A DNA stretch of 64,000 nucleotides, taken from the NCBI GenBank assembly GCA_030668485.1, contig DAOUTW010000007.1, positions 5,060 to 69,059 on the forward strand. Direction: 5' to 3'. The position numbers and the translations under genes were made by a program. The notes under the pieces were generated by a model that saw only the letters and a program-made list of their open reading frames with translations, was not told where the DNA came from and did not search any database. The DNA comes from Candidatus Zixiibacteriota bacterium. GTDB taxonomy: Bacteria > Zixibacteria > MSB-5A5 > GN15 > JAAZOE01. Positions 548-58,383 of this stretch are shown piece by piece; position 1 is the first letter of the stretch, and the number at the start of each line of letters is the position of its first letter.

Positions 548-1018
548 ATGGCCGGCAACATCCGATTCGAAGCGGTGACAAGAGACAACTGGGAAGAGGC
601 GATGAAAATGGCCGTCAAACCGGAACAGCAAAAGTTTGCCCCATCGGTGGCCGAATCTCTGGCGGCAGCCTATGTCAAGCCATGGGATGAGGCGCTCGAT
701 CCATACATAGTTTATGCCGATGACACCATGATTGGGCTTTTCTATATCTCATACACGCCGGAGAGTGTCGACAACTATTGGATAGGCGGCTTCATCATCG
801 ATCAAAAATATCAGAATCAGGGTTATGGTAAGGCGGTCCTCCGCCAGATACTGCAATTTATCCCCTCAATTCATTCCCAATGCCGCGAAATGAAACTGAC
901 TGTCGAGAAAGATAATGTGATCGCACAGAAGTTATATAAAGGCATGGGCTTTTCCGACACCGGCGAGGAAAACAAATACGGCGAGATCATTTATACCTTG
1001 CCGGTGGATGCTTCATGA
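548..1018 (+). CDS. GNAT-family N-acetyltransferase
   Basis: ATG at 548 follows a GGAG Shine-Dalgarno at 536-539. The approx. 156-aa protein has the GNAT core (QNQGYGKAVLRQIL ... KLYKGMGF). Confidence 0.75.
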   Translation: MAGNIRFEAVTRDNWEEAMKMAVKPEQQKFAPSVAESLAAAYVKPWDEALDPYIVYADDTMIGLFYISYTPESVDNYWIGGFIIDQKYQNQGYGKAVLRQILQFIPSIHSQCREMKLTVEKDNVIAQKLYKGMGFSDTGEENKYGEIIYTLPVDAS

Positions 1019-1110
1019 TTATAATTGGATGAATTGTAAAATACGTTGATGTAATAACAGAAATGTCTTAACACAAAAGTATTTCAATATTCCTCAGCGA
1101 CATAGGACTA

Positions 1111-1362
1111 TCAAGTCGCGGATTCACTTCTGGGCACAGGTAGAAGTGGAAGTTCAATCTTTTCAACAGACGATCCCTTGCGGAGCAATAAATCATAGCC
1201 GTCGATACGTTTTTCCAAAAACCAGGCAAATAGGCGCAATGAATTCTTAATCAGTTCCGCACGTGTCGTTGCTTGAGAAATATCCTTCAATTCATCCAGT
1301 GCCTTCAAAGCCTCAGGAGTCAGATCAAATTGTATTCTTTGCTTTTTGGATGAATTACTCAT
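1111..1362 (-). CDS. ribbon-helix-helix (CopG/Arc-like) DNA-binding protein
   Basis: Internal Met (MSNSSKKQRIQFDLTPEALKALDELK) is preceded by AGGAG. The N-terminus is an RHH beta-strand plus two helices. The protein is 83 aa. Confidence 0.5.
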   Translation of the reverse strand: MSNSSKKQRIQFDLTPEALKALDELKDISQATTRAELIKNSLRLFAWFLEKRIDGYDLLLRKGSSVEKIELPLLPVPRSESAT

Positions 1363-1375
1363 TTTATCTCCTTTA

Positions 1376-1720
1376 CTAAGGTGCAGGACCCCTATCTTCA
1401 AAAATAACTCTTAAAAGATATCCTACCAATGGTCCAACAAACATCCACCATAATCGGGCTGGCTCAAAATCGTCTCGGAATAATCCGATGACGAATAACA
1501 AAGCCAAAAATATCAAAGACCCGAACAAAATGAAGTTAGCGATTCTCCGCTTATGTTGTCCCGTCTTTTGCCGCTCCTGAAGATGAATACGTTCCCGAAG
1601 CAATCCGATTTGCTTCTCAAGATCAGTGAGGTAAAGATCCTCCGATCCATGTAGGTAGAAATCTTCTTCAGAATCCGACGATTCCCTAAATTCGCTGAAG
1701 TTGCAAAAGAAGCGAGCCAT
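1376..1720 (-). CDS. hypothetical membrane protein
   Basis: 114 aa with an acidic N-terminus, an amphipathic segment and one or two TM helices (FILFGSLIFLALLFVIGLF). Co-oriented with the RHH gene. Confidence 0.45.
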   Translation of the reverse strand: MARFFCNFSEFRESSDSEEDFYLHGSEDLYLTDLEKQIGLLRERIHLQERQKTGQHKRRIANFILFGSLIFLALLFVIGLFRDDFEPARLWWMFVGPLVGYLLRVIFEDRGPAP

Positions 1721-2006
1721 TCTCTACTCCTCCTTGCTCCAGATCCGTTTCCCTAGCTGGAGTCAAATGGGTTTACTATTTTGCCAATCATGCTAACCTC
1801 CAGGTTATTTTGATGGTGTACTTAAAAATATTTGATGCTGCACTTTACGCAATCACAAGTTAGGGAGTATTGAACATTTTGTCAAGTAAAAACTTCAAAT
1901 AATGAGTATATTATGAGTAGATATTAATATAAGATAGCCTAAGCTCCTGCGAGGCAATTGATAATGGCAAATTGTGTTAAGGCCTTATAAAGGCCATTTT
2001 CTACTA

Positions 2007-2044
2007 GAGAAAACGCCCCTGATAAAAACCAGGGGCGCCTTTTC
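2007..2044 (-). terminator. Rho-independent terminator downstream of the cytochrome gene
   Basis: 8-bp stem CGCCCCTG/CAGGGGCG with a T-run on the minus strand. Confidence 0.5.
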
Positions 2045-2119
2045 AATAAAGAAATATATCAATATTGCAGTCCGCGATCCGTGTGATCCCGGGAATTTAT
2101 GCTGTGAATCGCGGTTGTG

Positions 2120-4000
2120 CTACATCCGGTCTTCCTGAAGCGATTCGACTTCGCTATCATCATATCCGAGCGCCTTGAAATCCATGACACCAAAAGGTGA
2201 ATGGCAACTCTTGCAGGTTAGGGCGCCTTCCCGCCGAATGGCGTGGCTGGCTTCCAGCAGAGCATCCTGTGGAATCCAGCGCGCCTCTACCTGACGGAGG
2301 TTTTTGGCGTCCTCGTACGAATCGGTGTTCCAACCATCGGCGTCCATGAAGGTCATGAACTTGTCCATCATGTACACCTTGAACATCCATCCATACATCA
2401 TCTCCATCATCGGATGCTCCATCTCAACCATTGCTGCTTTGTCGGGATCGCCGGTTTTATAATAAGTCGGCAGATTGTACGGCAGGTACATACCGCCGAA
2501 GGGAGTGATATTCTGAAGGTCGATATGCTGTTTGCCATTAAACAGCTTCATCGGATAAATCTTGGAGGGGCGGCCGTCCTGAGCGATTGGACGCATTACC
2601 TCTTCATACCAGGTTGCATAATCAAAATCGGAAAACTCCGGCCAGATTTTATCCGGCTGGTAGAAACTGTAAAGGTTTTTGCCGTTGGGATTGTCGCCGA
2701 TCGGATTGCCGAGGAAGGTGGCATCGCCGTTCCACCAGGCATATATGATTCCCTTACCCGGTTCGGTCTCTTTGTGAGTGTCGGTGTACACATAAATACC
2801 GGGATGCTCCTCGAACATCGGAGTATTGAAATCGCGATAAGTGGCATTGTCCTCATGGAGGCTCGGAATATGGCAGGTCTGGCAGGCGATCATGTCAGTG
2901 TGGTCGTTATAGAAATCGGCGTATTCTTCGTCTTCGGAATGCGGCGCATTGGTATGACAATTTTCACAGGCGACTTCAACTTCCGGAAGATCGTTAGCCA
3001 TCATAGTCGTCGTGTGAGTCCCTTTGGCGATATAATGACCTTCGGTTTTGTGACATTCGATACAATCAACTCCGGCGGCGGCGTGAACATCCCATTCAGG
3101 ACTAAAGGGGGTTCCCCTTTTACTGCCGGGATGGGCGACACGCGGGCGTTCCTTGCCGACTTCAATGAGACTCTGATGGAAGGTCGGGTGATTCTCGTCG
3201 ACAAAAATATCGCCGCCAAAATTATGCTGATGGCAGCGCAGACAGGTTTGGGAAGTAGGTGTGGTAACTGACAGGGCAGCCGTCATCGAACGGTCCTGAT
3301 CCCAATACCAGCGACCTTTCTCAGTCGATACCACTTGTTTGCGGTTCATGTCGTATCCGACCGAATGGCAAATCAGGCAATCGATAGCGTCTTTTTCGCT
3401 GTCGCTGGTGCTGTATCCGGGCATCATTTCACCCAGCGGAGCGGTTGGCTGACCGCCGATATGGCATTGTCCGCAGCCCTCAGAAAGAGTATCGCCGCTG
3501 GCCAGAACGACTGGGGCGGCCCAGGCTGTCATCGCAAACGAACCCGGCTTGGGGCAGGGGCGGTTGATTTTACCCATCCGGAAATCATCGGCCAGTTCAC
3601 CGTTGAAACCATATACATTGGGATGCTTGGTGGTATAGAACCGGTAATGAGCCGAGGTAGTGAGGTTATGCATCAGATCATCTTTCTTGATCTCACCGGT
3701 TTTGGCATCCTCGTATTCAATATCCTCATGGCATTTCAAGCAGGTTTTCGGTCCTTCGTAGACAAAAATTCCCGCCTCGCGAAAAGCCTCAATATGAGGG
3801 AAATCATAATCATGGGCGGCCATCAAATCGGTGGCGATACGGTCATATTCCTCAGCCGTCACCTTTTCGGAGATAAAAGTAACTTCGGTCGGCCGGCTAT
3901 TGGCGGGCATCATTTTATTAATCGCTCCGGACCAGATATCACAGCCGCTGATGGCAAAAGCGATCAGCACCACTGCAATAGTTTTTATGATGGTTACCAT
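2120..4000 (-). CDS. octahaem c-type cytochrome, lipoprotein
   Basis: Eight CxxCH motifs: CLKCH, CGQCH, CLICH, CLRCH, CIECH, CENCH, CQTCH, CKSCH. N-terminal lipobox signal (AFAISGC). 626 aa. Confidence 0.8.
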   Translation of the reverse strand: MVTIIKTIAVVLIAFAISGCDIWSGAINKMMPANSRPTEVTFISEKVTAEEYDRIATDLMAAHDYDFPHIEAFREAGIFVYEGPKTCLKCHEDIEYEDAKTGEIKKDDLMHNLTTSAHYRFYTTKHPNVYGFNGELADDFRMGKINRPCPKPGSFAMTAWAAPVVLASGDTLSEGCGQCHIGGQPTAPLGEMMPGYSTSDSEKDAIDCLICHSVGYDMNRKQVVSTEKGRWYWDQDRSMTAALSVTTPTSQTCLRCHQHNFGGDIFVDENHPTFHQSLIEVGKERPRVAHPGSKRGTPFSPEWDVHAAAGVDCIECHKTEGHYIAKGTHTTTMMANDLPEVEVACENCHTNAPHSEDEEYADFYNDHTDMIACQTCHIPSLHEDNATYRDFNTPMFEEHPGIYVYTDTHKETEPGKGIIYAWWNGDATFLGNPIGDNPNGKNLYSFYQPDKIWPEFSDFDYATWYEEVMRPIAQDGRPSKIYPMKLFNGKQHIDLQNITPFGGMYLPYNLPTYYKTGDPDKAAMVEMEHPMMEMMYGWMFKVYMMDKFMTFMDADGWNTDSYEDAKNLRQVEARWIPQDALLEASHAIRREGALTCKSCHSPFGVMDFKALGYDDSEVESLQEDRM

Positions 4001-21220: not shown

Positions 21221-22315
21221 TTAGGATAATCTGGACATTATTTCGGCCTTGAGGCGATTCAGGCCGGTGTTTTTCAATGCCGAAAGAGGGATAATTCCAT
21301 TGGAAGGAAGGGGCGGCGGCCCCGATCCATCGAGCAAATCTGTTTTATTATAAATAGTTATGCGAGGTACCTGACCGGCTCCGATTTCTTTCAAGACCGA
21401 GATCACAACCTCTATTTTGCGGTCCTTGAACGGATCGGAACAATCGGCTATCAGGAGGATTAGGTCGGCCAGATTGACCTCCTCCAGGGTAGATTTGAAT
21501 GAGGCAACCAGTTGGTGGGGCAGTTTTTCGATAAAACCGACGGTGTCGGTGATGACAATATCCTGAGGGTATTCGACCGATATAACCCGGGTGGTCGAAT
21601 CGAGTGTCGAAAACAGCTTGTCTTCTTCCATGACATCAGATCGGGTAAGGCGGTTGAACAGGGTCGATTTGCCGGCGTTGGTATAGCCGACCAGGGCGAT
21701 CTTGAAAAATCGCTGGCGGCCCTTGCGCTGAGTTTGGCGCTGGCTTTCTATTTTTTTTAATTTCTTTTTCAGATGAGCGATTTTTTTACCCACGCGGCGG
21801 CGGTCGACCTCAAGCTGGGTTTCGCCGGGACCCTTGGTGCCGATACCGCCTCGCTGGCGCGAAAAGTGTTCCCATAGCCCGGCCAGCCGGGGAAGGAGAT
21901 ATTCCATCTGGGCCAATTCGACCTGAAGTCTCGACTCGGCCGTCCGGGCATGCATCGCGAAAATATCGAGGATCAGCATCGGGCGGTCGATGACGCGAAT
22001 ATCGAGGTTTTTGCTCAGGTTGCGCAATTGGTTGGGGGAGAGGGGATCGTCGAAAACGACCAGGCTGGCCTCGTGTTCCTCGACAGCCGTCTTGATTTGC
22101 TCGACCAACCCCTTGCCGACAAAATAGGTGCCGTCCGGTTTGTTGCGGCTTTGCAGGAAGCGTTCGGCTTCCACCCCTCCGGCGGTTTCGGTCAGACGGG
22201 CCAACTCATCGAGTGAGTTTTCGGCCTCAATGCGGGAGCTTCGTCCCAGTATAGTCCCGACCAGTATTGCCTTTTCGGCGACCTGATCTTTTCCGGTATC
22301 ATACCCTTTCATCAT
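21221..22315 (-). CDS. hflX: GTPase HflX
   Basis: HflX N-domain plus G-domain (GYTNAGKSTLFN, DTVGF, NKTD). Start chosen at the MMKGY Met. Confidence 0.85.
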   Translation of the reverse strand: MMKGYDTGKDQVAEKAILVGTILGRSSRIEAENSLDELARLTETAGGVEAERFLQSRNKPDGTYFVGKGLVEQIKTAVEEHEASLVVFDDPLSPNQLRNLSKNLDIRVIDRPMLILDIFAMHARTAESRLQVELAQMEYLLPRLAGLWEHFSRQRGGIGTKGPGETQLEVDRRRVGKKIAHLKKKLKKIESQRQTQRKGRQRFFKIALVGYTNAGKSTLFNRLTRSDVMEEDKLFSTLDSTTRVISVEYPQDIVITDTVGFIEKLPHQLVASFKSTLEEVNLADLILLIADCSDPFKDRKIEVVISVLKEIGAGQVPRITIYNKTDLLDGSGPPPLPSNGIIPLSALKNTGLNRLKAEIMSRLS

Positions 22316-22348
22316 GCCAATATAATATGTTAATGCGGTTATGGTTGC

Positions 22349-22405
22349 ATAAAAGTTGTTTTGCAGGCAGGTGGCAGGGGCCACCTTTTTGGCTGTCGCA
22401 CAGAT
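22349..22405. repeat. approx. 46-bp repeat element, copy 1 (contains hairpin GGTGGC-aggg-GCCACC + T5)
   Basis: Near-identical to the copy at 22741-22792. Contains a terminator-like hairpin. Confidence 0.6.
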
Positions 22406-22740
22406 GATCGTACTATGGAGTCGTAATCGCATGAAGTCTTACATACACCAAGGCTACCATTATACTGCCCTAATAAGTTGTCGTGCAACAGCATATCGGG
22501 AATTTGGCTTTGTTTGCTCATTTTTAAAGAAATTTCTTTTTCTGAATCTTTTTCTGTCCCGCATTCAGTTGTAGTACTTGTGTGGCAATGGTTTAGGGTC
22601 CGTTTGTCATATTTAAGGTTTTTCCTTTTTTTGGCTTTGGATGGAACTTCCCTCTCGTTCGCGTGCATAGGTATTGTTTCCTTTAATCATCAGGTTCATC
22701 TATAGGGGAATGGACAGGATTTACAACGGTTCTACGTTGA

Positions 22741-22792
22741 TTTTGCAGGTGGCAGGGGCCACTTTTTGGCTGTCACGTAGATGATCTGAAGG
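22741..22792. repeat. approx. 46-bp repeat element, copy 2
   Basis: ttttgcaggtggcaggggccactttttggctgtcacgtagatgatc aligns to copy 1 with a 3-nt indel and about 4 mismatches. Confidence 0.6.
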
Positions 22793-22838
22793 CACCGCGA
22801 CCACCGGTCGCGGCCACCCGTCCGCTACAGAAAACTAT

Positions 22839-24110
22839 TTGTCTATTTTATTGAATCAGTTATCTTTTGATAAATGGTGTGAAAAATTAAGATTTCTAAT
22901 GAGAGAATTACTTTTAAAAAAAATACTTTCAAGCTTTAGTGAGAATTCATTCCGCGCGTTTGTAAAGGAATTTTTTGAGACAGATGGCGTACCTCTAGTT
23001 GCACATGAGGACATTGGGGAGGATATATTTTTCCGACCAATTATTGACTCATACGGGGGATCAATACATTCGGTATTTATGCTACATTTTATTCCGTTCG
23101 AATTATTTAAGGATCCATTAAATATTAAGATTGTCGATCCTCCCTTGAAAAATAACCTACAAAAAATCGAAAGATATTATAAAGGTAGAAAAGGCCAATG
23201 GGGAATGGTTTCTCCTGCTTTGACGGAAGATGATGCACTACAGACTCTGGCATTTCTTGTAAATATAGCGAATGTCTCAGAAGATGCATACCACGAATTT
23301 ATTATCCCAAAGTATTCACAAGCGGCGGCCGCATGCGGAATTAAGGCGGACATTTATGTTGGGTCGTATGATTCGTTTTTTGCCAAGAGCCCGAATTGTA
23401 CAGAGAATACTATAGAAAAGTATTTTGATAATTACCGTGAAGGTATATCAATAAATCTTAGCCATGATGAAGTCTACATCGATCAATATCTATCAGAAAA
23501 ATATATAATAAATGGTGTCCTTCCACATACTTTGAATCCATGCGAGCCTGTTATTGTAAATCGAACTGTGAAATTAAATCAGGTATTTGCGGAATTTACC
23601 AGTCTTTTAAAAGAATCGACGAAGGAAAAAGATTTGGAATGCTTTTTGTCGGCCCACTATAAAGAAATATTTGGCTACGTATATGATAGAATTGAGACTC
23701 AGTTATGGCTGAAATTTCCTGAGGTTGATATTGCCAATAAAAATAGAAGACTTGATATCTTCTTGAGAAACTGCATCGAAAATGATTGGGAGCTATTTGA
23801 ACTAAAAAGAATTACTCCATTGACAACAAGCTACAGAGATGTACCAGTATTCACCCGGGAAATTATGAATGCATTACAGCAAACAAAGAACTATGCCCGT
23901 ATTCTTTCGCAAGATTCAGTCAAAAAGAAATTGGCGGCACAAGGGATAGAATATTATGAACCTTCATTACGTCTGGTAATTGGAGGTAGACCTAACATGT
24001 CTATTCAACAATGGCGGTGGTTGAAAGCATCCAATGAAAGTAACATAAAGATAATTACTTATGATGACCTTTTAAAGGAATTGAAATTACGGATGGAGAA
24101 TAGAGCATAA
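22839..24110 (+). CDS. AT-rich orphan protein with PD-(D/E)xK nuclease core (DUF4263/Shedu-like or RecB/Cas4-like fold); candidate defence gene
   Basis: Long clean ORF at about 30-35% GC against about 52% for the flanks. C-terminal motifs: RRLDIFLRN...WELFELKR (D..E-x-K) and QQTKNY (QxxxY). Confidence 0.6.
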   Translation: MSILLNQLSFDKWCEKLRFLMRELLLKKILSSFSENSFRAFVKEFFETDGVPLVAHEDIGEDIFFRPIIDSYGGSIHSVFMLHFIPFELFKDPLNIKIVDPPLKNNLQKIERYYKGRKGQWGMVSPALTEDDALQTLAFLVNIANVSEDAYHEFIIPKYSQAAAACGIKADIYVGSYDSFFAKSPNCTENTIEKYFDNYREGISINLSHDEVYIDQYLSEKYIINGVLPHTLNPCEPVIVNRTVKLNQVFAEFTSLLKESTKEKDLECFLSAHYKEIFGYVYDRIETQLWLKFPEVDIANKNRRLDIFLRNCIENDWELFELKRITPLTTSYRDVPVFTREIMNALQQTKNYARILSQDSVKKKLAAQGIEYYEPSLRLVIGGRPNMSIQQWRWLKASNESNIKIITYDDLLKELKLRMENRA

Positions 24111-24142
24111 ATATAAAAATGAAGCTGAGAATAGACGCCGCA

Positions 24143-25264
24143 CTAATTTGCTAATTCTTCCAGTTTTTCCCTCGTCACACCCAGTGAGACCCCTGTCGAT
24201 AGGGCGACTTTTATTAGGTCGGAGTCGAGGGGGACGTTGCGGGATTTGCCGGAGACTTCGGAAAGGGGAACGGAAACAAGATCATCACCCTTGAGGGCAA
24301 CCATGTTACCAAACTTCTTTTCGGAAACAAGACGGACCGCCTCGCATCCATAGCGAGTAGCCAGCAGACGATCAAACGCGGTCGGTGATCCGCCGCGCAC
24401 CAGATGACCAAGAATAGTCACCCGCGTTTCCAGTTTCGTCAACTCTTCTATCTGCTCGCCAATGAGACGCGAAATTCCGCCAAGGCGAATGGCGTCAGGG
24501 GAATTTTCGATCATTCGCTTGATGACCATCTCGCCGCCTTCCGGCTTGGCACCTTCGCCGACAACGATGATAGAAAAGTTTCTGCCGATACTTTTGCGTT
24601 CTTTGATCTTCTCACAGATAGCATCGATATCATATGGGATTTCGGGAATGAGAATAATATCGCCGCCGCCGGCCAGACCGGAAGCAAGCGCCAGCCATCC
24701 GGCATAACGCCCCATGACCTCGATAATCATTACCCGGTGATGAGCCTGAGCGGTGGTATGGATTTTGTCGATAGCCTCGGTCGCCGTGGCAACAGCCGAA
24801 TCAAAACCAAAGGTTCGGTCGGTACCATACAAATCATTGTCTATCGTTTTGGGCACGCCAATCATATTGATGCCCAGGTCACATAAAGGCCCGGCGGCCG
24901 ACATGGTTCCGTCGCCGCCGATGACGATCAGCGAATCAAGGCCGAGCTTTTGGTAGTTATTGACCAGGTCGGCGGAGCGATCAAGGTAGACGTATTTGTC
25001 TTTTTGAAGGATGGGAAATTTGAAAGGATCGGCGCGGTTAGAAGTACCGAGAATCGTCCCTCCCCGACTCAAAATTCCGGAAACCGAATCCTTATCAAGA
25101 GCGATATAATTGTCGAGTACGAGACCCTCATACCCGTCCTTGAACCCGATTACCGACATATCATAGTCATTTATCGCGGTTTTAACCACCGCCCTGAGAA
25201 CAGCATTCAATCCGGGGCAGTCGCCGCCGCCAGTGAGAACTCCAATGCGCATCTGTTTGGCCAT
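24143..25264 (-). CDS. pfkA: 6-phosphofructokinase
   Basis: GVLTGGGDCPGLNAV, GGDGT/S, MGR motifs. 373 aa. Confidence 0.9.
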   Translation of the reverse strand: MAKQMRIGVLTGGGDCPGLNAVLRAVVKTAINDYDMSVIGFKDGYEGLVLDNYIALDKDSVSGILSRGGTILGTSNRADPFKFPILQKDKYVYLDRSADLVNNYQKLGLDSLIVIGGDGTMSAAGPLCDLGINMIGVPKTIDNDLYGTDRTFGFDSAVATATEAIDKIHTTAQAHHRVMIIEVMGRYAGWLALASGLAGGGDIILIPEIPYDIDAICEKIKERKSIGRNFSIIVVGEGAKPEGGEMVIKRMIENSPDAIRLGGISRLIGEQIEELTKLETRVTILGHLVRGGSPTAFDRLLATRYGCEAVRLVSEKKFGNMVALKGDDLVSVPLSEVSGKSRNVPLDSDLIKVALSTGVSLGVTREKLEELAN

Positions 25265-52607: not shown

Positions 52608-52680
<73 letters not shown>

Positions 52681-52689
52681 CTAATGGCG

Positions 52690-52764
52690 CATTTTATTTT
52701 GGTGAGGGTGGAAGGGATCGAACCTTCGACCACCTGCTTAAAAGGCAGATGCTCTACCCCTGAG
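52690..52764 (-). tRNA. tRNA-Lys (anticodon TTT)
   Basis: Manual cloverleaf: acceptor GGGGGTG/CACCCTC, anticodon loop CTTTTAA, T-loop TTCGATC, encoded CCA. Confidence 0.8.
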
Positions 52765-52869
52765 CTACACCCCCACACTTATTTTGGGTCAGAAATATAG
52801 GCTTTTGCGATAAAATGTCAACATTTTTTATCCGGACTCAGAGGGCTCAGGGCGGACAAAATAAACTGC

Positions 52870-56402: not shown

Positions 56403-57218
56403 ATGCATACTATGATCAAGATTTCGATACTGATTGGGGCCTGTCTGCTGGCGGCCAATGCGGCGGCCTTGGAAGATCGGGTATCCCTTCAGGCAGTTCG
56501 TTCCATGGACGGAGCTCAGGTTGATACCCTCTACTTTGGGCATGAACACCAATTTCAGGTTATGATCGAAAACAGCTTCGTTCTATTTCAATTCTCCCTC
56601 GGGTTTGCCATATACTCGGATAGTAATACCTCTTTGGAATGGAATGCTCAACCGGATGGGTATCCCGAAGACGGGCAACGAGCAATAACCGTGATTCCGG
56701 ACAGCCGCTTGGATTCCGTCAATATTGACGTCGGCCAGGTACGGATAGGCTTTATAGATGGTAGTCTTGATGAGCAATTGCCGGATTCGATGGCGGTGAT
56801 CCCCTGGTATGGCTTTGATTTACCAATAGGACCGATGGAACCGATGATGGCTTTTCATTTTACGCCGATACAAAACTTCCCTGATGAGGTCGGTGAGCTT
56901 TGCCTGGACTGGACATGGGCCGGGAGTGAATTTGTGTTCTTCTTCTATGATCAATGGATGTATTATACTCCCGAATTTGACAGGCCCTTCTGCTGGCCGG
57001 TCAAGGAATTCGAACCCATGTTGGGTGATTTCAATTATGACTGGCAGATTTCCGTTGGCGATATTGTTGCGATGATCCAGCATATTTTTGGTGGGGTGCC
57101 GCATGTCGCACCAGTTGGATCCGGCGATGTCAATTGCGACGGCCAAATGAATGTGGGTGACGCGATCTATCTGATTGCCCATATTTTCAGATTCGGTCCC
57201 GCGCCGGGATGCCCGTAG
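56403..57218 (+). CDS. secreted paralog P5 (most divergent)
   Basis: Same architecture, but the first Ca-loop is degenerate (GDFNYDWQ). Ends ...FRFGPAPGCP. Confidence 0.7.
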   Translation: MHTMIKISILIGACLLAANAAALEDRVSLQAVRSMDGAQVDTLYFGHEHQFQVMIENSFVLFQFSLGFAIYSDSNTSLEWNAQPDGYPEDGQRAITVIPDSRLDSVNIDVGQVRIGFIDGSLDEQLPDSMAVIPWYGFDLPIGPMEPMMAFHFTPIQNFPDEVGELCLDWTWAGSEFVFFFYDQWMYYTPEFDRPFCWPVKEFEPMLGDFNYDWQISVGDIVAMIQHIFGGVPHVAPVGSGDVNCDGQMNVGDAIYLIAHIFRFGPAPGCP

Positions 57219-57528
57219 GCAATTTGGCCATTATTTAGCAATGATTTAGCCTGATTTTCGTCCCAATTGTGAAGATTGACCCCCAATAATAAAAGGCGGG
57301 GTGTCTAATCCCGCCTTTCCTAGTAACAAAAGGAGAAAATGTCTAAGTTCCTCCGAAACCTCAGCAATGTCTTTCCTCATCTCTTTTTACGAAATTAACC
57401 CTTGAGGGTTCCACTAATTACAGAAAATTTCACCCTCAATAATTTGCATCCGGAGGCCTTAATTAGCTATATTTAGAGTGAAAATTAAATTTTTGCCGAA
57501 AAATCGAACAAACTTTTGAATCGTTTTA

Positions 57529-57990
57529 GTGGTTAGTGTATCTAAAAGCCTAAACCGAGTTGGGAGACTTGAAGTGAATAAAAGTATTCAATGGGAAGGT
57601 GGCCTGAAATTTACCGGTAAATCGAATTTCGGGTTGGATATAACGCTCGACGGCCCCAAAAAAGTCGGCGGCGACGAGGATGGGTATCAGCCTCTGGAGT
57701 TAATCGTCTTTGCTCTGGCCGGTTGCACCGGGATGGATGTGGTTTCGATCGCTAAAAAAATGAAGCAAAACGTCACCGGTTTCAATATCAATGTCGAAGC
57801 AGTGCAAAAAGAGGATCATCCCCGTTTTCTAACCAAAGCCCATATTGAATATGTTTTTACCGGAAAAGACCTGAAACCGGAAATGCTGGAGAAGGCCATT
57901 TTGTTGTCGGAAGAAAAATACTGCTCGGTCGGGACAACCATGTCGGGCATGACCAAAATCACGCACAGTATTAAGATAAACGAGGGATAA
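57529..57990 (+). CDS. OsmC/Ohr family peroxiredoxin-like protein
   Basis: OsmC fold motifs (PLELIVFALAGCTGMDV, EKYCSV). The true start may be at the internal GTG near 57574. Confidence 0.75.
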   Translation: MVSVSKSLNRVGRLEVNKSIQWEGGLKFTGKSNFGLDITLDGPKKVGGDEDGYQPLELIVFALAGCTGMDVVSIAKKMKQNVTGFNINVEAVQKEDHPRFLTKAHIEYVFTGKDLKPEMLEKAILLSEEKYCSVGTTMSGMTKITHSIKINEG

Positions 57991-57993
57991 AAA

Positions 57994-58383
57994 ATGAACA
58001 TGACCTACGAAATCGGATCGGATCGGCCGTTTGATGATGTGGTAGGCGATGTGGAAAGGCTGACGGCCGAAAAACAATTTCGTGTTTTGCACATACATGA
58101 TGTCAAGGCGACTCTGGAGGAAAAAGGTTTCCAGCGCGAATCGTTGAAAATTATCGAAATTTGCAACGCCAAATTCGCCCATGAAGCACTCGGCAAACAT
58201 ATGGGGGTGTCGATCTTCATGCCATGCAAAATCAATGTCTATACCGAAAACGGAAAAACTAAAATTATGGCCATGCGCCCGATTGCTATCGCCGATTTTA
58301 TGCCCGATGCCGACCTGAATGAACTGGCTGCCGGTGTCGATAAAATCGTAACCGAAATCGTCGACGGCGCGGCCCGGGGTTAG
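57994..58383 (+). CDS. DUF302 domain protein
   Basis: 129-aa typical DUF302. GAGGGA RBS. Confidence 0.75.
   Translation: MNMTYEIGSDRPFDDVVGDVERLTAEKQFRVLHIHDVKATLEEKGFQRESLKIIEICNAKFAHEALGKHMGVSIFMPCKINVYTENGKTKIMAMRPIAIADFMPDADLNELAAGVDKIVTEIVDGAARG

What the first reader, a model, noticed from the sequence alone, without database searches (positions are those of the whole stretch)
22839..24110. AT-rich orphan gene encoding a PD-(D/E)xK nuclease-fold protein wedged between hflX and pfkA: candidate single-gene defence island
This 1.27-kb ORF has strikingly low GC (many 60-nt stretches are 20-35% GC) against about 52% on both flanks. That points to horizontal acquisition. The 423-aa product has no signal peptide. 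Its C-terminal third carries a PD-(D/E)xK nuclease signature: RRLDIFLRN (Asp codon near 23754), WELFELKR (E-x-K codons near 23799-23807) and QQTKNY (QxxxY codons near 23877-23894). This arrangement is typical of RecB/Cas4-like and DUF4263 (Shedu-type) nucleases. The approx. 280-aa N-terminal region is unassigned and could be a sensor domain.
Basis: partly seen in the sequence, partly recalled or inferred. Interest (0 to 1): 0.7.

Follow-up and report, generated by a model that had tools for sequence, protein, structure and literature searches.

The report
Shedu-type defence nuclease gene cassette

Summary
An intact ORF lies at 22839-24110 (+). Its real start is most likely ATG 22899, giving 403 aa. 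It is the lowest-GC 1.2 kb of the window: GC 0.357 and GC3 0.317, against GC3 0.56-0.66 in the neighbours.

The product is a Shedu/SduA nuclease:
- Pfam SduA_C (DUF4263) scores above its gathering cut-off, and PADLOC SduA models match.
- PD-(D/E)xK motifs I-IV (E243, D286, E301-x-K303, Q328) are invariant or nearly so in 89 homologues.

The N-terminal 180 aa form a confident restriction-endonuclease-like fold with no conserved lysine. This is probably a non-catalytic sensor domain, and it occurs only in this small Shedu subfamily.

The cassette (about 22841-24140) carries no integrase, tRNA or att repeats. The two relatives that keep pfkA and hflX together hold PDC-M41 (TcmP + DUF5131) in the same slot. 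Another relative has PDC-M24 after pfkA. The slot is therefore a defence hotspot.

Verdict: a new member of a known kind, of modest interest.

One side lead is worth noting. In 8 of 10 homologue loci this subfamily lies within 5 kb of a TcmP-like + DUF5131/SPL gene pair.

The parts
22899..24110 (+). sduA coding sequence (403 aa plus stop), a Shedu-family nuclease
   Evidence: ORF. The start is set by the identical 403-aa database protein P0001 and by the homologue alignment. Pfam SduA_C and PADLOC SduA match.
22839..22898 (+). In-frame 5' extension from a TTG. It is AT-rich, not conserved in homologues, and probably the leader/promoter of the cassette.
   Evidence: Alignment A1 shows homologues starting at the position of M21. 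No convincing sigma-70-like promoter was found by the scan.
22899..23438 (+). N-terminal domain (aa 1-180): restriction-endonuclease-like alpha/beta fold without a conserved D...(D/E)xK, the putative sensor or regulatory domain
23439..23558 (+). Linker (aa 181-220): a beta-hairpin followed by a low-confidence stretch
   Evidence: pLDDT is 45-50 over about aa 183-218 in the full-length model.
23559..24107 (+). C-terminal DUF4263/SduA_C PD-(D/E)xK nuclease domain (aa 221-403)
23625..23627 (+). Motif I glutamate, E243
   Evidence: Invariant in 89 of 89 sequences. It lies 43 residues before motif II, compared with 45 (E204 to D249) in B. cereus Shedu.
23754..23756 (+). Motif II aspartate, D286 (in RRLDIFLRN)
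   Evidence: Invariant in 89 of 89 sequences.
23799..23807 (+). Motif III, E301-x-K303 (in ELFELKR)
   Evidence: Both residues are invariant in 89 of 89 sequences. The D-to-E spacing of 15 residues is the same as in B. cereus Shedu (D249, E264).
23880..23894 (+). Motif IV, Q328 and Y332 (in QQTKNY)
   Evidence: Q328 is present in 88 of 89 sequences and Y332 in 89 of 89. It corresponds to motif IV Q295 of B. cereus Shedu.
22841..24140 (.). Approximate extent of the acquired low-GC cassette: one gene, about 58 nt upstream and about 30 nt downstream
   Evidence: Left edge: homology of the hflX-upstream region with relative L090 runs up to about 22840. Right edge: the PFK C-terminus diverges from relatives, and is about 7 aa shorter, after '...EEL'. 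GC profile. The edges are approximate.
22316..22840 (-). Ancestral hflX-upstream region, not part of the cassette. It holds a 43-nt direct repeat (22367-22409 and 22745-22786) and a conserved core (22497-22527).
   Evidence: The repeat occurs only twice in the window. The same motif and core are found upstream of hflX in L090, and the core also in L086. No Rfam match.
21221..22315 (-). hflX (left flank, housekeeping, host-like GC)
   Evidence: Pfam GTP-bdg_N, GTP-bdg_M and MMR_HSR1. The start is set by homologues. GC3 is 0.633.
24143..25264 (-). pfkA (right flank, housekeeping, host-like GC), convergent with sduA across a 32-nt gap
   Evidence: Pfam PFK, E = 3.7e-108. GC3 is 0.57.

Best explanation
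The gene encodes a Type-1 Shedu (SduA) immune nuclease. It was acquired horizontally as a minimal one-gene cassette, in a variable slot between pfkA and hflX of an uncultivated FCB-group (Zixibacteria-like) bacterium.

Shown here:
- The C-terminal 180 aa are a DUF4263 PD-(D/E)xK nuclease domain with a complete, conserved active site.
- The N-terminal 180 aa are a separate restriction-endonuclease-like domain without a canonical catalytic triad.
- The gene is compositionally foreign.
- It stands alone among housekeeping genes.
- The same slot carries other candidate defence cargo in relatives.

Inferred from the two studied Shedu proteins (B. cereus and E. coli SduA):
- The protein assembles into a homotetramer through the nuclease domains.
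- It is kept inactive by its N-terminal domains.
- When those domains meet an infection-specific nucleic-acid feature, it cuts or nicks the invading DNA and so stops phage replication. The feature could be a DNA end, an unusual or modified DNA, or another structure bound by the inactive-endonuclease-like fold.
For: Sequence and profile evidence:
- Pfam SduA_C scores 31.9 bits against a gathering cut-off of 27, covering the full profile 4-159.
- Eight PADLOC SduA models match, the best at E = 4.3e-9.
- Most of the 120 listed homologues carry PF14082, and JGI names some of them 'antiviral defense system Shedu protein SduA'.
- Motifs I-IV are invariant or nearly so, with spacing like B. cereus Shedu.

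Structural evidence:
- The top Foldseek matches are 8ti9 and 8ps5.
- The N-terminal domain model is confident and restriction-endonuclease-like.

Acquisition and context:
- Composition: GC 0.357, GC3 0.317, z = -5.4.
- All 10 homologue loci examined also have the gene below flank GC.
- The slot holds PDC-M41A/B in L004 and L086, and PDC-M24A/B follows pfkA in L002.
- No defence-family hits in neighbouring genes beyond generic domains.

Mechanistic precedent: Gu et al. (10.1101/2023.08.10.552793) and Loeff et al. (10.1101/2023.08.10.552762).
Against: - No experiment bears on this protein or on any member of its subfamily.
- A sequence-profile search against PDB chains did not reach the solved Shedu proteins. 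The link rests on the Pfam/PADLOC profiles and on fold.
- The nuclease-domain model is only moderately confident (pLDDT about 60-84).
- Oligomeric state and the sensed signal could not be tested.
- No promoter or terminator could be identified, so expression is unproven.
- In 8 of 10 homologue loci the gene lies within 5 kb of a TcmP-like + DUF5131/SPL pair. The subfamily may therefore not be fully autonomous. This window has no such pair.
Confidence: 0.8

Rival explanations
1. The nuclease is one arm of a larger system. This Shedu subfamily would normally work together with a TcmP-like partner plus a DUF5131 or SPL-family radical-SAM-like enzyme, for example a DNA-modifying module that marks self. 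The copy in this window would then be either an orphaned remnant or dependent on a module elsewhere in the genome.
For: - In 8 of 10 homologue loci such a pair lies within 5 kb. In several the genes are co-oriented with gaps of 10-110 nt (L082, L166, L169, L170).
- The partners hit PADLOC PDC-M41A/M30A and PDC-M41B/M30B.
- The same pfkA-hflX slot in sister genomes holds PDC-M41A+B.
Against: - Shedu is established as a single-gene system.
- Two of the 10 homologue loci (L171, L172) and this window lack the pair.
- Gene orientations vary: divergent in L167, convergent in L165.
- Defence genes cluster in islands without being functionally linked.
- Ten loci is a small sample.
Confidence: 0.15
2. 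It acts as a stand-alone modification-dependent (Type IV-like) or sequence-specific restriction endonuclease. The N-terminal endonuclease-like domain would read modified or specific DNA, or itself cut DNA, rather than acting as an autoinhibitory infection sensor.
For: - The N-terminal domain resembles the cleavage or recognition domains of restriction enzymes and of AspBHI/MspJI-type enzymes.
- Gu et al. describe Shedu classes with restriction-endonuclease and modified-DNA-reading N-terminal domains.
Against: - No conserved lysine and no D...(D/E)xK pattern in aa 1-200.
- No methyltransferase is nearby.
- This is a variant of the Shedu mechanism rather than a different family.
Confidence: 0.15
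3. It is a housekeeping DNA-repair or recombination nuclease of the NucS/EndoMS, RecB or Cas4 kind that happens to be AT-rich.
For: - Gu et al. note EndoMS as the closest non-Shedu fold.
Against: - No Pfam or NCBIfam match to those families.
- The Shedu structures score far higher.
- The gene is absent from the same slot in relatives and is compositionally foreign.
- The family is rare and patchy across phyla.
Confidence: 0.03
4. It is a silent or decaying passenger gene with no present function.
For: - No recognisable promoter, Shine-Dalgarno sequence or terminator.
- No partner module.
- The closest relative is only 48% identical.
Against: - The reading frame of 403 codons is intact, with every catalytic and nearly every family-conserved residue retained.
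- FCB-group promoters and ribosome-binding sites are not covered by the scan used.
Confidence: 0.05

Closest known systems
Bacillus cereus B4264 Shedu (SduA; PDB 8TI8, 8TI9; Gu et al.)
   Same: - C-terminal DUF4263 PD-(D/E)xK domain with motifs I-IV at nearly the same spacing: E/D/ExK/Q at 243/286/301,303/328, against 204/249/264,266/295.
- Single gene, with an N-terminal regulatory region followed by a linker.
   Different: - About 16-17% identity in the aligned nuclease domain, with no sequence-level hit.
- The B. cereus N-terminal domain is an sPC4/Whirly-type fold (Type 1A). Here it is a restriction-endonuclease-like fold.
- Octamer-based activation is unknown here.
Escherichia coli SduA (PDB 8PS4, 8PS5; Loeff et al.)
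   Same: - Similar length (404-408 aa against 403).
- Same two-part layout.
- The catalytic E, D, ExK set was shown there to be needed for defence.
   Different: - Only about 190 residues (the nuclease domain) superpose.
- End-sensing and 5'-strand nicking therefore cannot be assumed.
Type 1G Shedu of Gu et al. (N-terminal DNA-binding domains, including inactive restriction-endonuclease folds)
   Same: A Shedu nuclease fused to an N-terminal endonuclease-like fold that lacks obvious catalytic residues.
   Different: Whether this N-terminal family is one of their 79 clusters could not be checked, because the supplementary table is not held. The domain family found here is small: 122 representatives among 1.84 billion.
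KELShedu two-component system (Sci Adv 2025, PMC12577705)
   Same: A precedent for a Shedu-type nuclease working with a partner protein. This is relevant to the TcmP/DUF5131 neighbourhood seen for this subfamily.
   Different: It is known to me only from the abstract listed. The partner there is a dsDNA-binding protein (KELA), not a TcmP/DUF5131 pair, and no partner is present in this window.

Membership tests
Shedu (SduA, DUF4263 / PF14082) | C-terminal SduA_C/DUF4263 domain detected by the family profile above its curated threshold | tested here: met
   PF14082: 31.9 bits against a cut-off of 27, profile positions 4-159 of 159. Eight PADLOC SduA models match, the best at 4.3e-9.
Shedu (SduA, DUF4263 / PF14082) | PD-(D/E)xK active-site motifs I (E), II (D), III (ExK) and IV (Q) | tested here: met
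   E243, D286, E301, K303 and Q328 are conserved at 99-100% in 89 sequences. The spacing matches B. cereus Shedu.
Shedu (SduA, DUF4263 / PF14082) | Nuclease-domain fold closest to solved Shedu structures | tested here: met
Shedu (SduA, DUF4263 / PF14082) | Acts as a single gene without an obligatory partner | tested here: inconclusive
   In the window the neighbours are housekeeping genes with no defence-specific hits. In 8 of 10 homologue loci, however, a TcmP-like + DUF5131/SPL pair is within 5 kb.
Shedu (SduA, DUF4263 / PF14082) | Homotetramer through the nuclease domain, with the N-terminal domain restraining activity | not testable with these tools
   Only monomer predictions were possible.
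Shedu (SduA, DUF4263 / PF14082) | Protects against phage | not testable with these tools
   This needs an experiment.
RecB / Cas4-like nucleases | Match to the family profiles (Cas4 / PDDEXK_1, with the Cys cluster) | tested here: not met
NucS / EndoMS | NucS profile and two-domain NucS fold | tested here: not met
Active restriction endonuclease (for the N-terminal domain) | Conserved acidic residues plus lysine, D...(D/E)xK, on the core strands | tested here: not met
Integrase-borne genomic island | Integrase or transposase gene, tRNA target, flanking att direct repeats | tested here: not met
   The nearest tRNAs are 28 kb away. No mobility gene lies among the neighbours. The only direct repeat lies to one side of the gene and is conserved upstream of hflX in relative L090.

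The most novel reading that the evidence does not exclude
This small Shedu subfamily, with its endonuclease-like N-terminal domain, may be the nuclease arm of an undescribed three-gene system. Its other arm would be a TcmP-like protein plus a DUF5131 or SPL-family radical-SAM-like enzyme (PADLOC candidates PDC-M41/M30), perhaps a DNA-marking module read by the nuclease. In this Zixibacteria-like clade the pfkA-hflX slot would then hold one or the other half.
Probability: 0.15. Interest if true: 0.6.

Novelty: new member of a known kind. Interest (0 to 1): 0.3.

Why it matters
- It adds a Shedu nuclease from a poorly sampled, uncultivated FCB-group/Zixibacteria-like lineage. Its N-terminal domain is confidently modelled, endonuclease-like and found only in this subfamily. 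That is a concrete candidate for asking what signals Shedu proteins sense beyond DNA ends.
- It identifies the pfkA-hflX interval as a small defence hotspot that exchanges cassettes without any visible mobility gene.
- The recurrent neighbourhood with TcmP + DUF5131/SPL pairs gives a testable lead on candidate systems (PDC-M41/M30) for which my literature search found no functional study.
- None of this changes current understanding of Shedu.

Tried and rejected
1. The 43-nt direct repeat (22367-22409 and 22745-22786) looked like island att sites. I rejected this. Both copies lie on the hflX side of the gene. The motif, and the segment between the copies, are also conserved upstream of hflX in L090, and partly in L086.
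2. Remnants of other cargo in the slot, or of sduA in relatives: none found.
3. Terminal repeats of the cassette: only a 7-nt inverted match (GTCTATT at 22841-22847, AATAGAC at 24128-24134), which by my estimate is about what chance would give in flanks of this size.
4. An empty pfkA-hflX site: none found. Only the window, L004 and L086 keep both genes together. More distant relatives have other housekeeping neighbours.
5. A sequence-profile search of PDB chains gave no Shedu hit.
6. NCBIfam and PHROGs gave no hit.
7. The plasmid, phage and IMG/VR collections hold no relative.
8. Rfam found nothing in the 22250-22950 interval.
9. The N- and C-terminal domains are not a recent internal duplication (hhalign probability 0.6%).
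10. The AlphaFold-database fold library was unavailable.
11. Gu et al.'s supplementary table is not held, so their N-terminal class could not be assigned.
12. PADLOC hits of the Crp-like and receiver-domain neighbours match only generic domains, so I dismissed them.

Full report
**Observation**

The ORF 22839..24110 (+) exists. The identical database protein, P0001, is 403 aa. In an alignment with 31 homologues the family begins at the methionine encoded at 22899, and the 20 residues from the TTG at 22839 are not conserved. I therefore take 22899..24110 as the gene.

Its GC content is 0.357 against 0.494 for the window. No non-overlapping stretch of the same length falls below 0.399 (mean 0.497, sd 0.026, z = -5.4). 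GC3 is 0.317, against 0.56-0.66 in hflX, pfkA, glgP and three further neighbours.

The flanking genes are HflX (21221..22315, -) and phosphofructokinase (24143..25264, -) by Pfam.

**What the protein is**

Pfam places aa 243-392 (403-aa numbering) in SduA_C / DUF4263. The score is 31.9 bits against a gathering cut-off of 27, and the match covers the whole profile. Eight PADLOC SduA models also match, the best at E = 4.3e-9. NCBIfam and PHROGs give nothing.

A database search returns 255 homologues at E <= 1e-3. Of the 120 best that are listed, most are 405-435 aa and most carry PF14082. JGI names several of them as the Shedu protein SduA. The closest non-self sequence is only 48% identical.

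In an 89-sequence alignment E243, D286, E301, K303 and Y332 are invariant, and Q328 is present in 88 of 89. The spacing is 43, 15 and 25 residues. The corresponding spacing of motifs I-IV of B. cereus Shedu (E204, D249, E264/K266, Q295) is 45, 15 and 29.

**Domain anatomy**

No lysine is conserved in this part. The conserved polar residues (S51, Y52, H57, H63, D80, N122, D158, S159) do not form a D...(D/E)xK pattern. The domain is therefore probably not a canonical nuclease. I could not map the residues in three dimensions.

A profile of the domain, searched against 1.84 billion representatives, finds only 122 proteins. They have the same roughly 400-aa architecture, or are fragments, or are about 620 aa long with an extra N-terminal extension of about 200 aa that has no Pfam match.

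Residues 181-220 are a hairpin plus a low-confidence linker.

**Genomic context and boundaries**

The host is an uncultivated FCB-group, Zixibacteria-like bacterium. Its PFK is 65-77% identical to those of Zixibacteria-type MAGs.

Only two relatives keep pfkA and hflX together. These are L004 (PFK 73% identical) and the metagenome contig L086 (HflX 77% identical). In both, the interval holds two low-GC genes that match PADLOC candidates: PDC-M41A, which I read as the TcmP ('three-Cys-motif partner') type, and PDC-M41B, a DUF5131 protein. In L002 (PFK 77% identical) pfkA is followed by PDC-M24A/B (DUF6978 and DUF1828/1829) and synteny then ends. More distant relatives have ordinary genes next to pfkA or hflX. 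I found no empty site.

The 583 nt between hflX and sduA are mostly ancestral. A 43-nt direct repeat (22367-22409 and 22745-22786) and a conserved core (22497-22527) recur upstream of hflX in L090, and the core also in L086. The repeats are therefore not island ends.

Homology with L090 fades at about 22840. On the other side, the PFK C-terminus departs from its relatives after '...EEL' and is about 7 aa shorter. The cassette is thus about 22841-24140: one gene with about 58 nt upstream and about 30 nt downstream.

No integrase, transposase, tRNA or meaningful terminal repeat accompanies it.

**The family elsewhere**

In all ten homologue loci examined, the gene is 0.04-0.13 lower in GC than its flanks. 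No relative occurs in the plasmid, phage or IMG/VR collections.

In eight of the ten loci, a TcmP-like gene (PDC-M41A/M30A) lies within 5 kb. It is paired with either a DUF5131 gene or an SPL-family (PF20903) gene. In several loci the genes are co-oriented with short gaps. The window has no such pair in its 64 kb. The sister genomes, however, carry exactly that pair in the same slot.

**Most likely mechanism**

Domain identity, an intact active site, foreign composition, solitary position and the hotspot context are shown here.

The rest is inferred by analogy. In B. cereus Shedu the N-terminal region holds a homotetramer inactive, and its removal activates DNA cleavage. In E. coli SduA the N-terminal domains clamp a free DNA end and the nuclease nicks the 5' strand at a fixed distance. 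By analogy, this protein should form a tetramer through aa 221-403. It should sense an infection-specific nucleic-acid feature through its endonuclease-like N-terminal domains, and then cut the invader's DNA.

What it senses is unknown. The fold suggests DNA binding, in line with the Type 1G class of Gu et al..

**Rivals**

- It may depend on a TcmP/DUF5131-type module.
- It may act as a Type IV-like restriction enzyme.
- It may be a repair nuclease of the NucS or RecB kind.
- It may be a silent passenger.

The last two fit the evidence poorly. The first is the most interesting reading that the data do not exclude.

**Comparison and verdict**

Every defining feature of Shedu that could be tested by computation is met: the profile, the motifs and the fold. 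Oligomeric state and phage protection cannot be tested here. Autonomy is uncertain for the subfamily as a whole.

This is a new member of a known kind. The corrections are to the start codon, the 'orphan' label and the extent of the N-terminal domain. Interest is modest (0.3).

Noticed in passing
window 22316-22840 (minus strand, upstream of hflX); L090 250-766; L086 2602-3401: A conserved non-coding or small-ORF region lies upstream of hflX. It has two copies of a 43-nt motif (GATCATCYRYGYGACAGCC-AAAAAG-GTGGCCCCTGCCACC, which contains a hairpin). These flank a core (TTAAAAATGAGGAAACAAAGCCAA) that could start a short upstream ORF: MRKQ[ST]QR... in L090 and L086, MSKQSQ... in the window. No Rfam match. 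It might be an hflX leader or attenuator, as known for some hflX genes (this comparison is from my own knowledge). With only three sequences, coding versus RNA could not be decided.
   Followed up: partly
L082, L084, L165-L170 (homologue loci); L004 7302-8877; L086 889-2570: This Shedu subfamily lies within 5 kb of a TcmP-like gene (PDC-M41A/M30A) plus either a DUF5131 gene or an SPL-family radical-SAM-like gene in 8 of 10 loci. The SPL-associated partner also hits PDC-M30A, so the two pairs look like variants of one module.
   Followed up: partly
L086 2496-2601 and 3261-3366: A 106-nt direct repeat (93% identical) comprises the 3' end of the DUF5131 gene plus 30 nt. It brackets the 660-nt conserved hflX-upstream segment. 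L004 has the gene end directly next to hflX, with no such segment. The cause could be recombination between the repeats, an insertion, or an assembly artefact.
   Followed up: no
window 22316-22335 and the equivalent positions in L004, L085-L088, L090, L091: A conserved CGTA(T/G)TATATT box sits 3-15 nt before the hflX start codon in all close relatives. This suggests a promoter element with a very short leader or none.
   Followed up: no
window 24143-24160 (pfkA 3' end): PFK ends '...EELAN', about 7 aa shorter than in relatives ('...EELRKEQELVTA', '...QELRGEALAARQ'). The cassette junction may have replaced the last codons of pfkA.
   Followed up: partly
P0020, P0035, P0050, P0067, P0074 and 15 others: About a sixth of the 120 listed homologues (580-640 aa) carry an extra N-terminal extension of about 200 aa. 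It has no Pfam match and is not a copy of the N-terminal domain.
   Followed up: partly
window 601-2400 and 57001-58200: Two further stretches of moderately low GC (0.43-0.44) in the window-wide profile. I did not examine them.
   Followed up: no
window 52617-52774 (-): Two adjacent tRNA-Lys genes (anticodons CTT and TTT). They are unrelated to the cassette.
   Followed up: no
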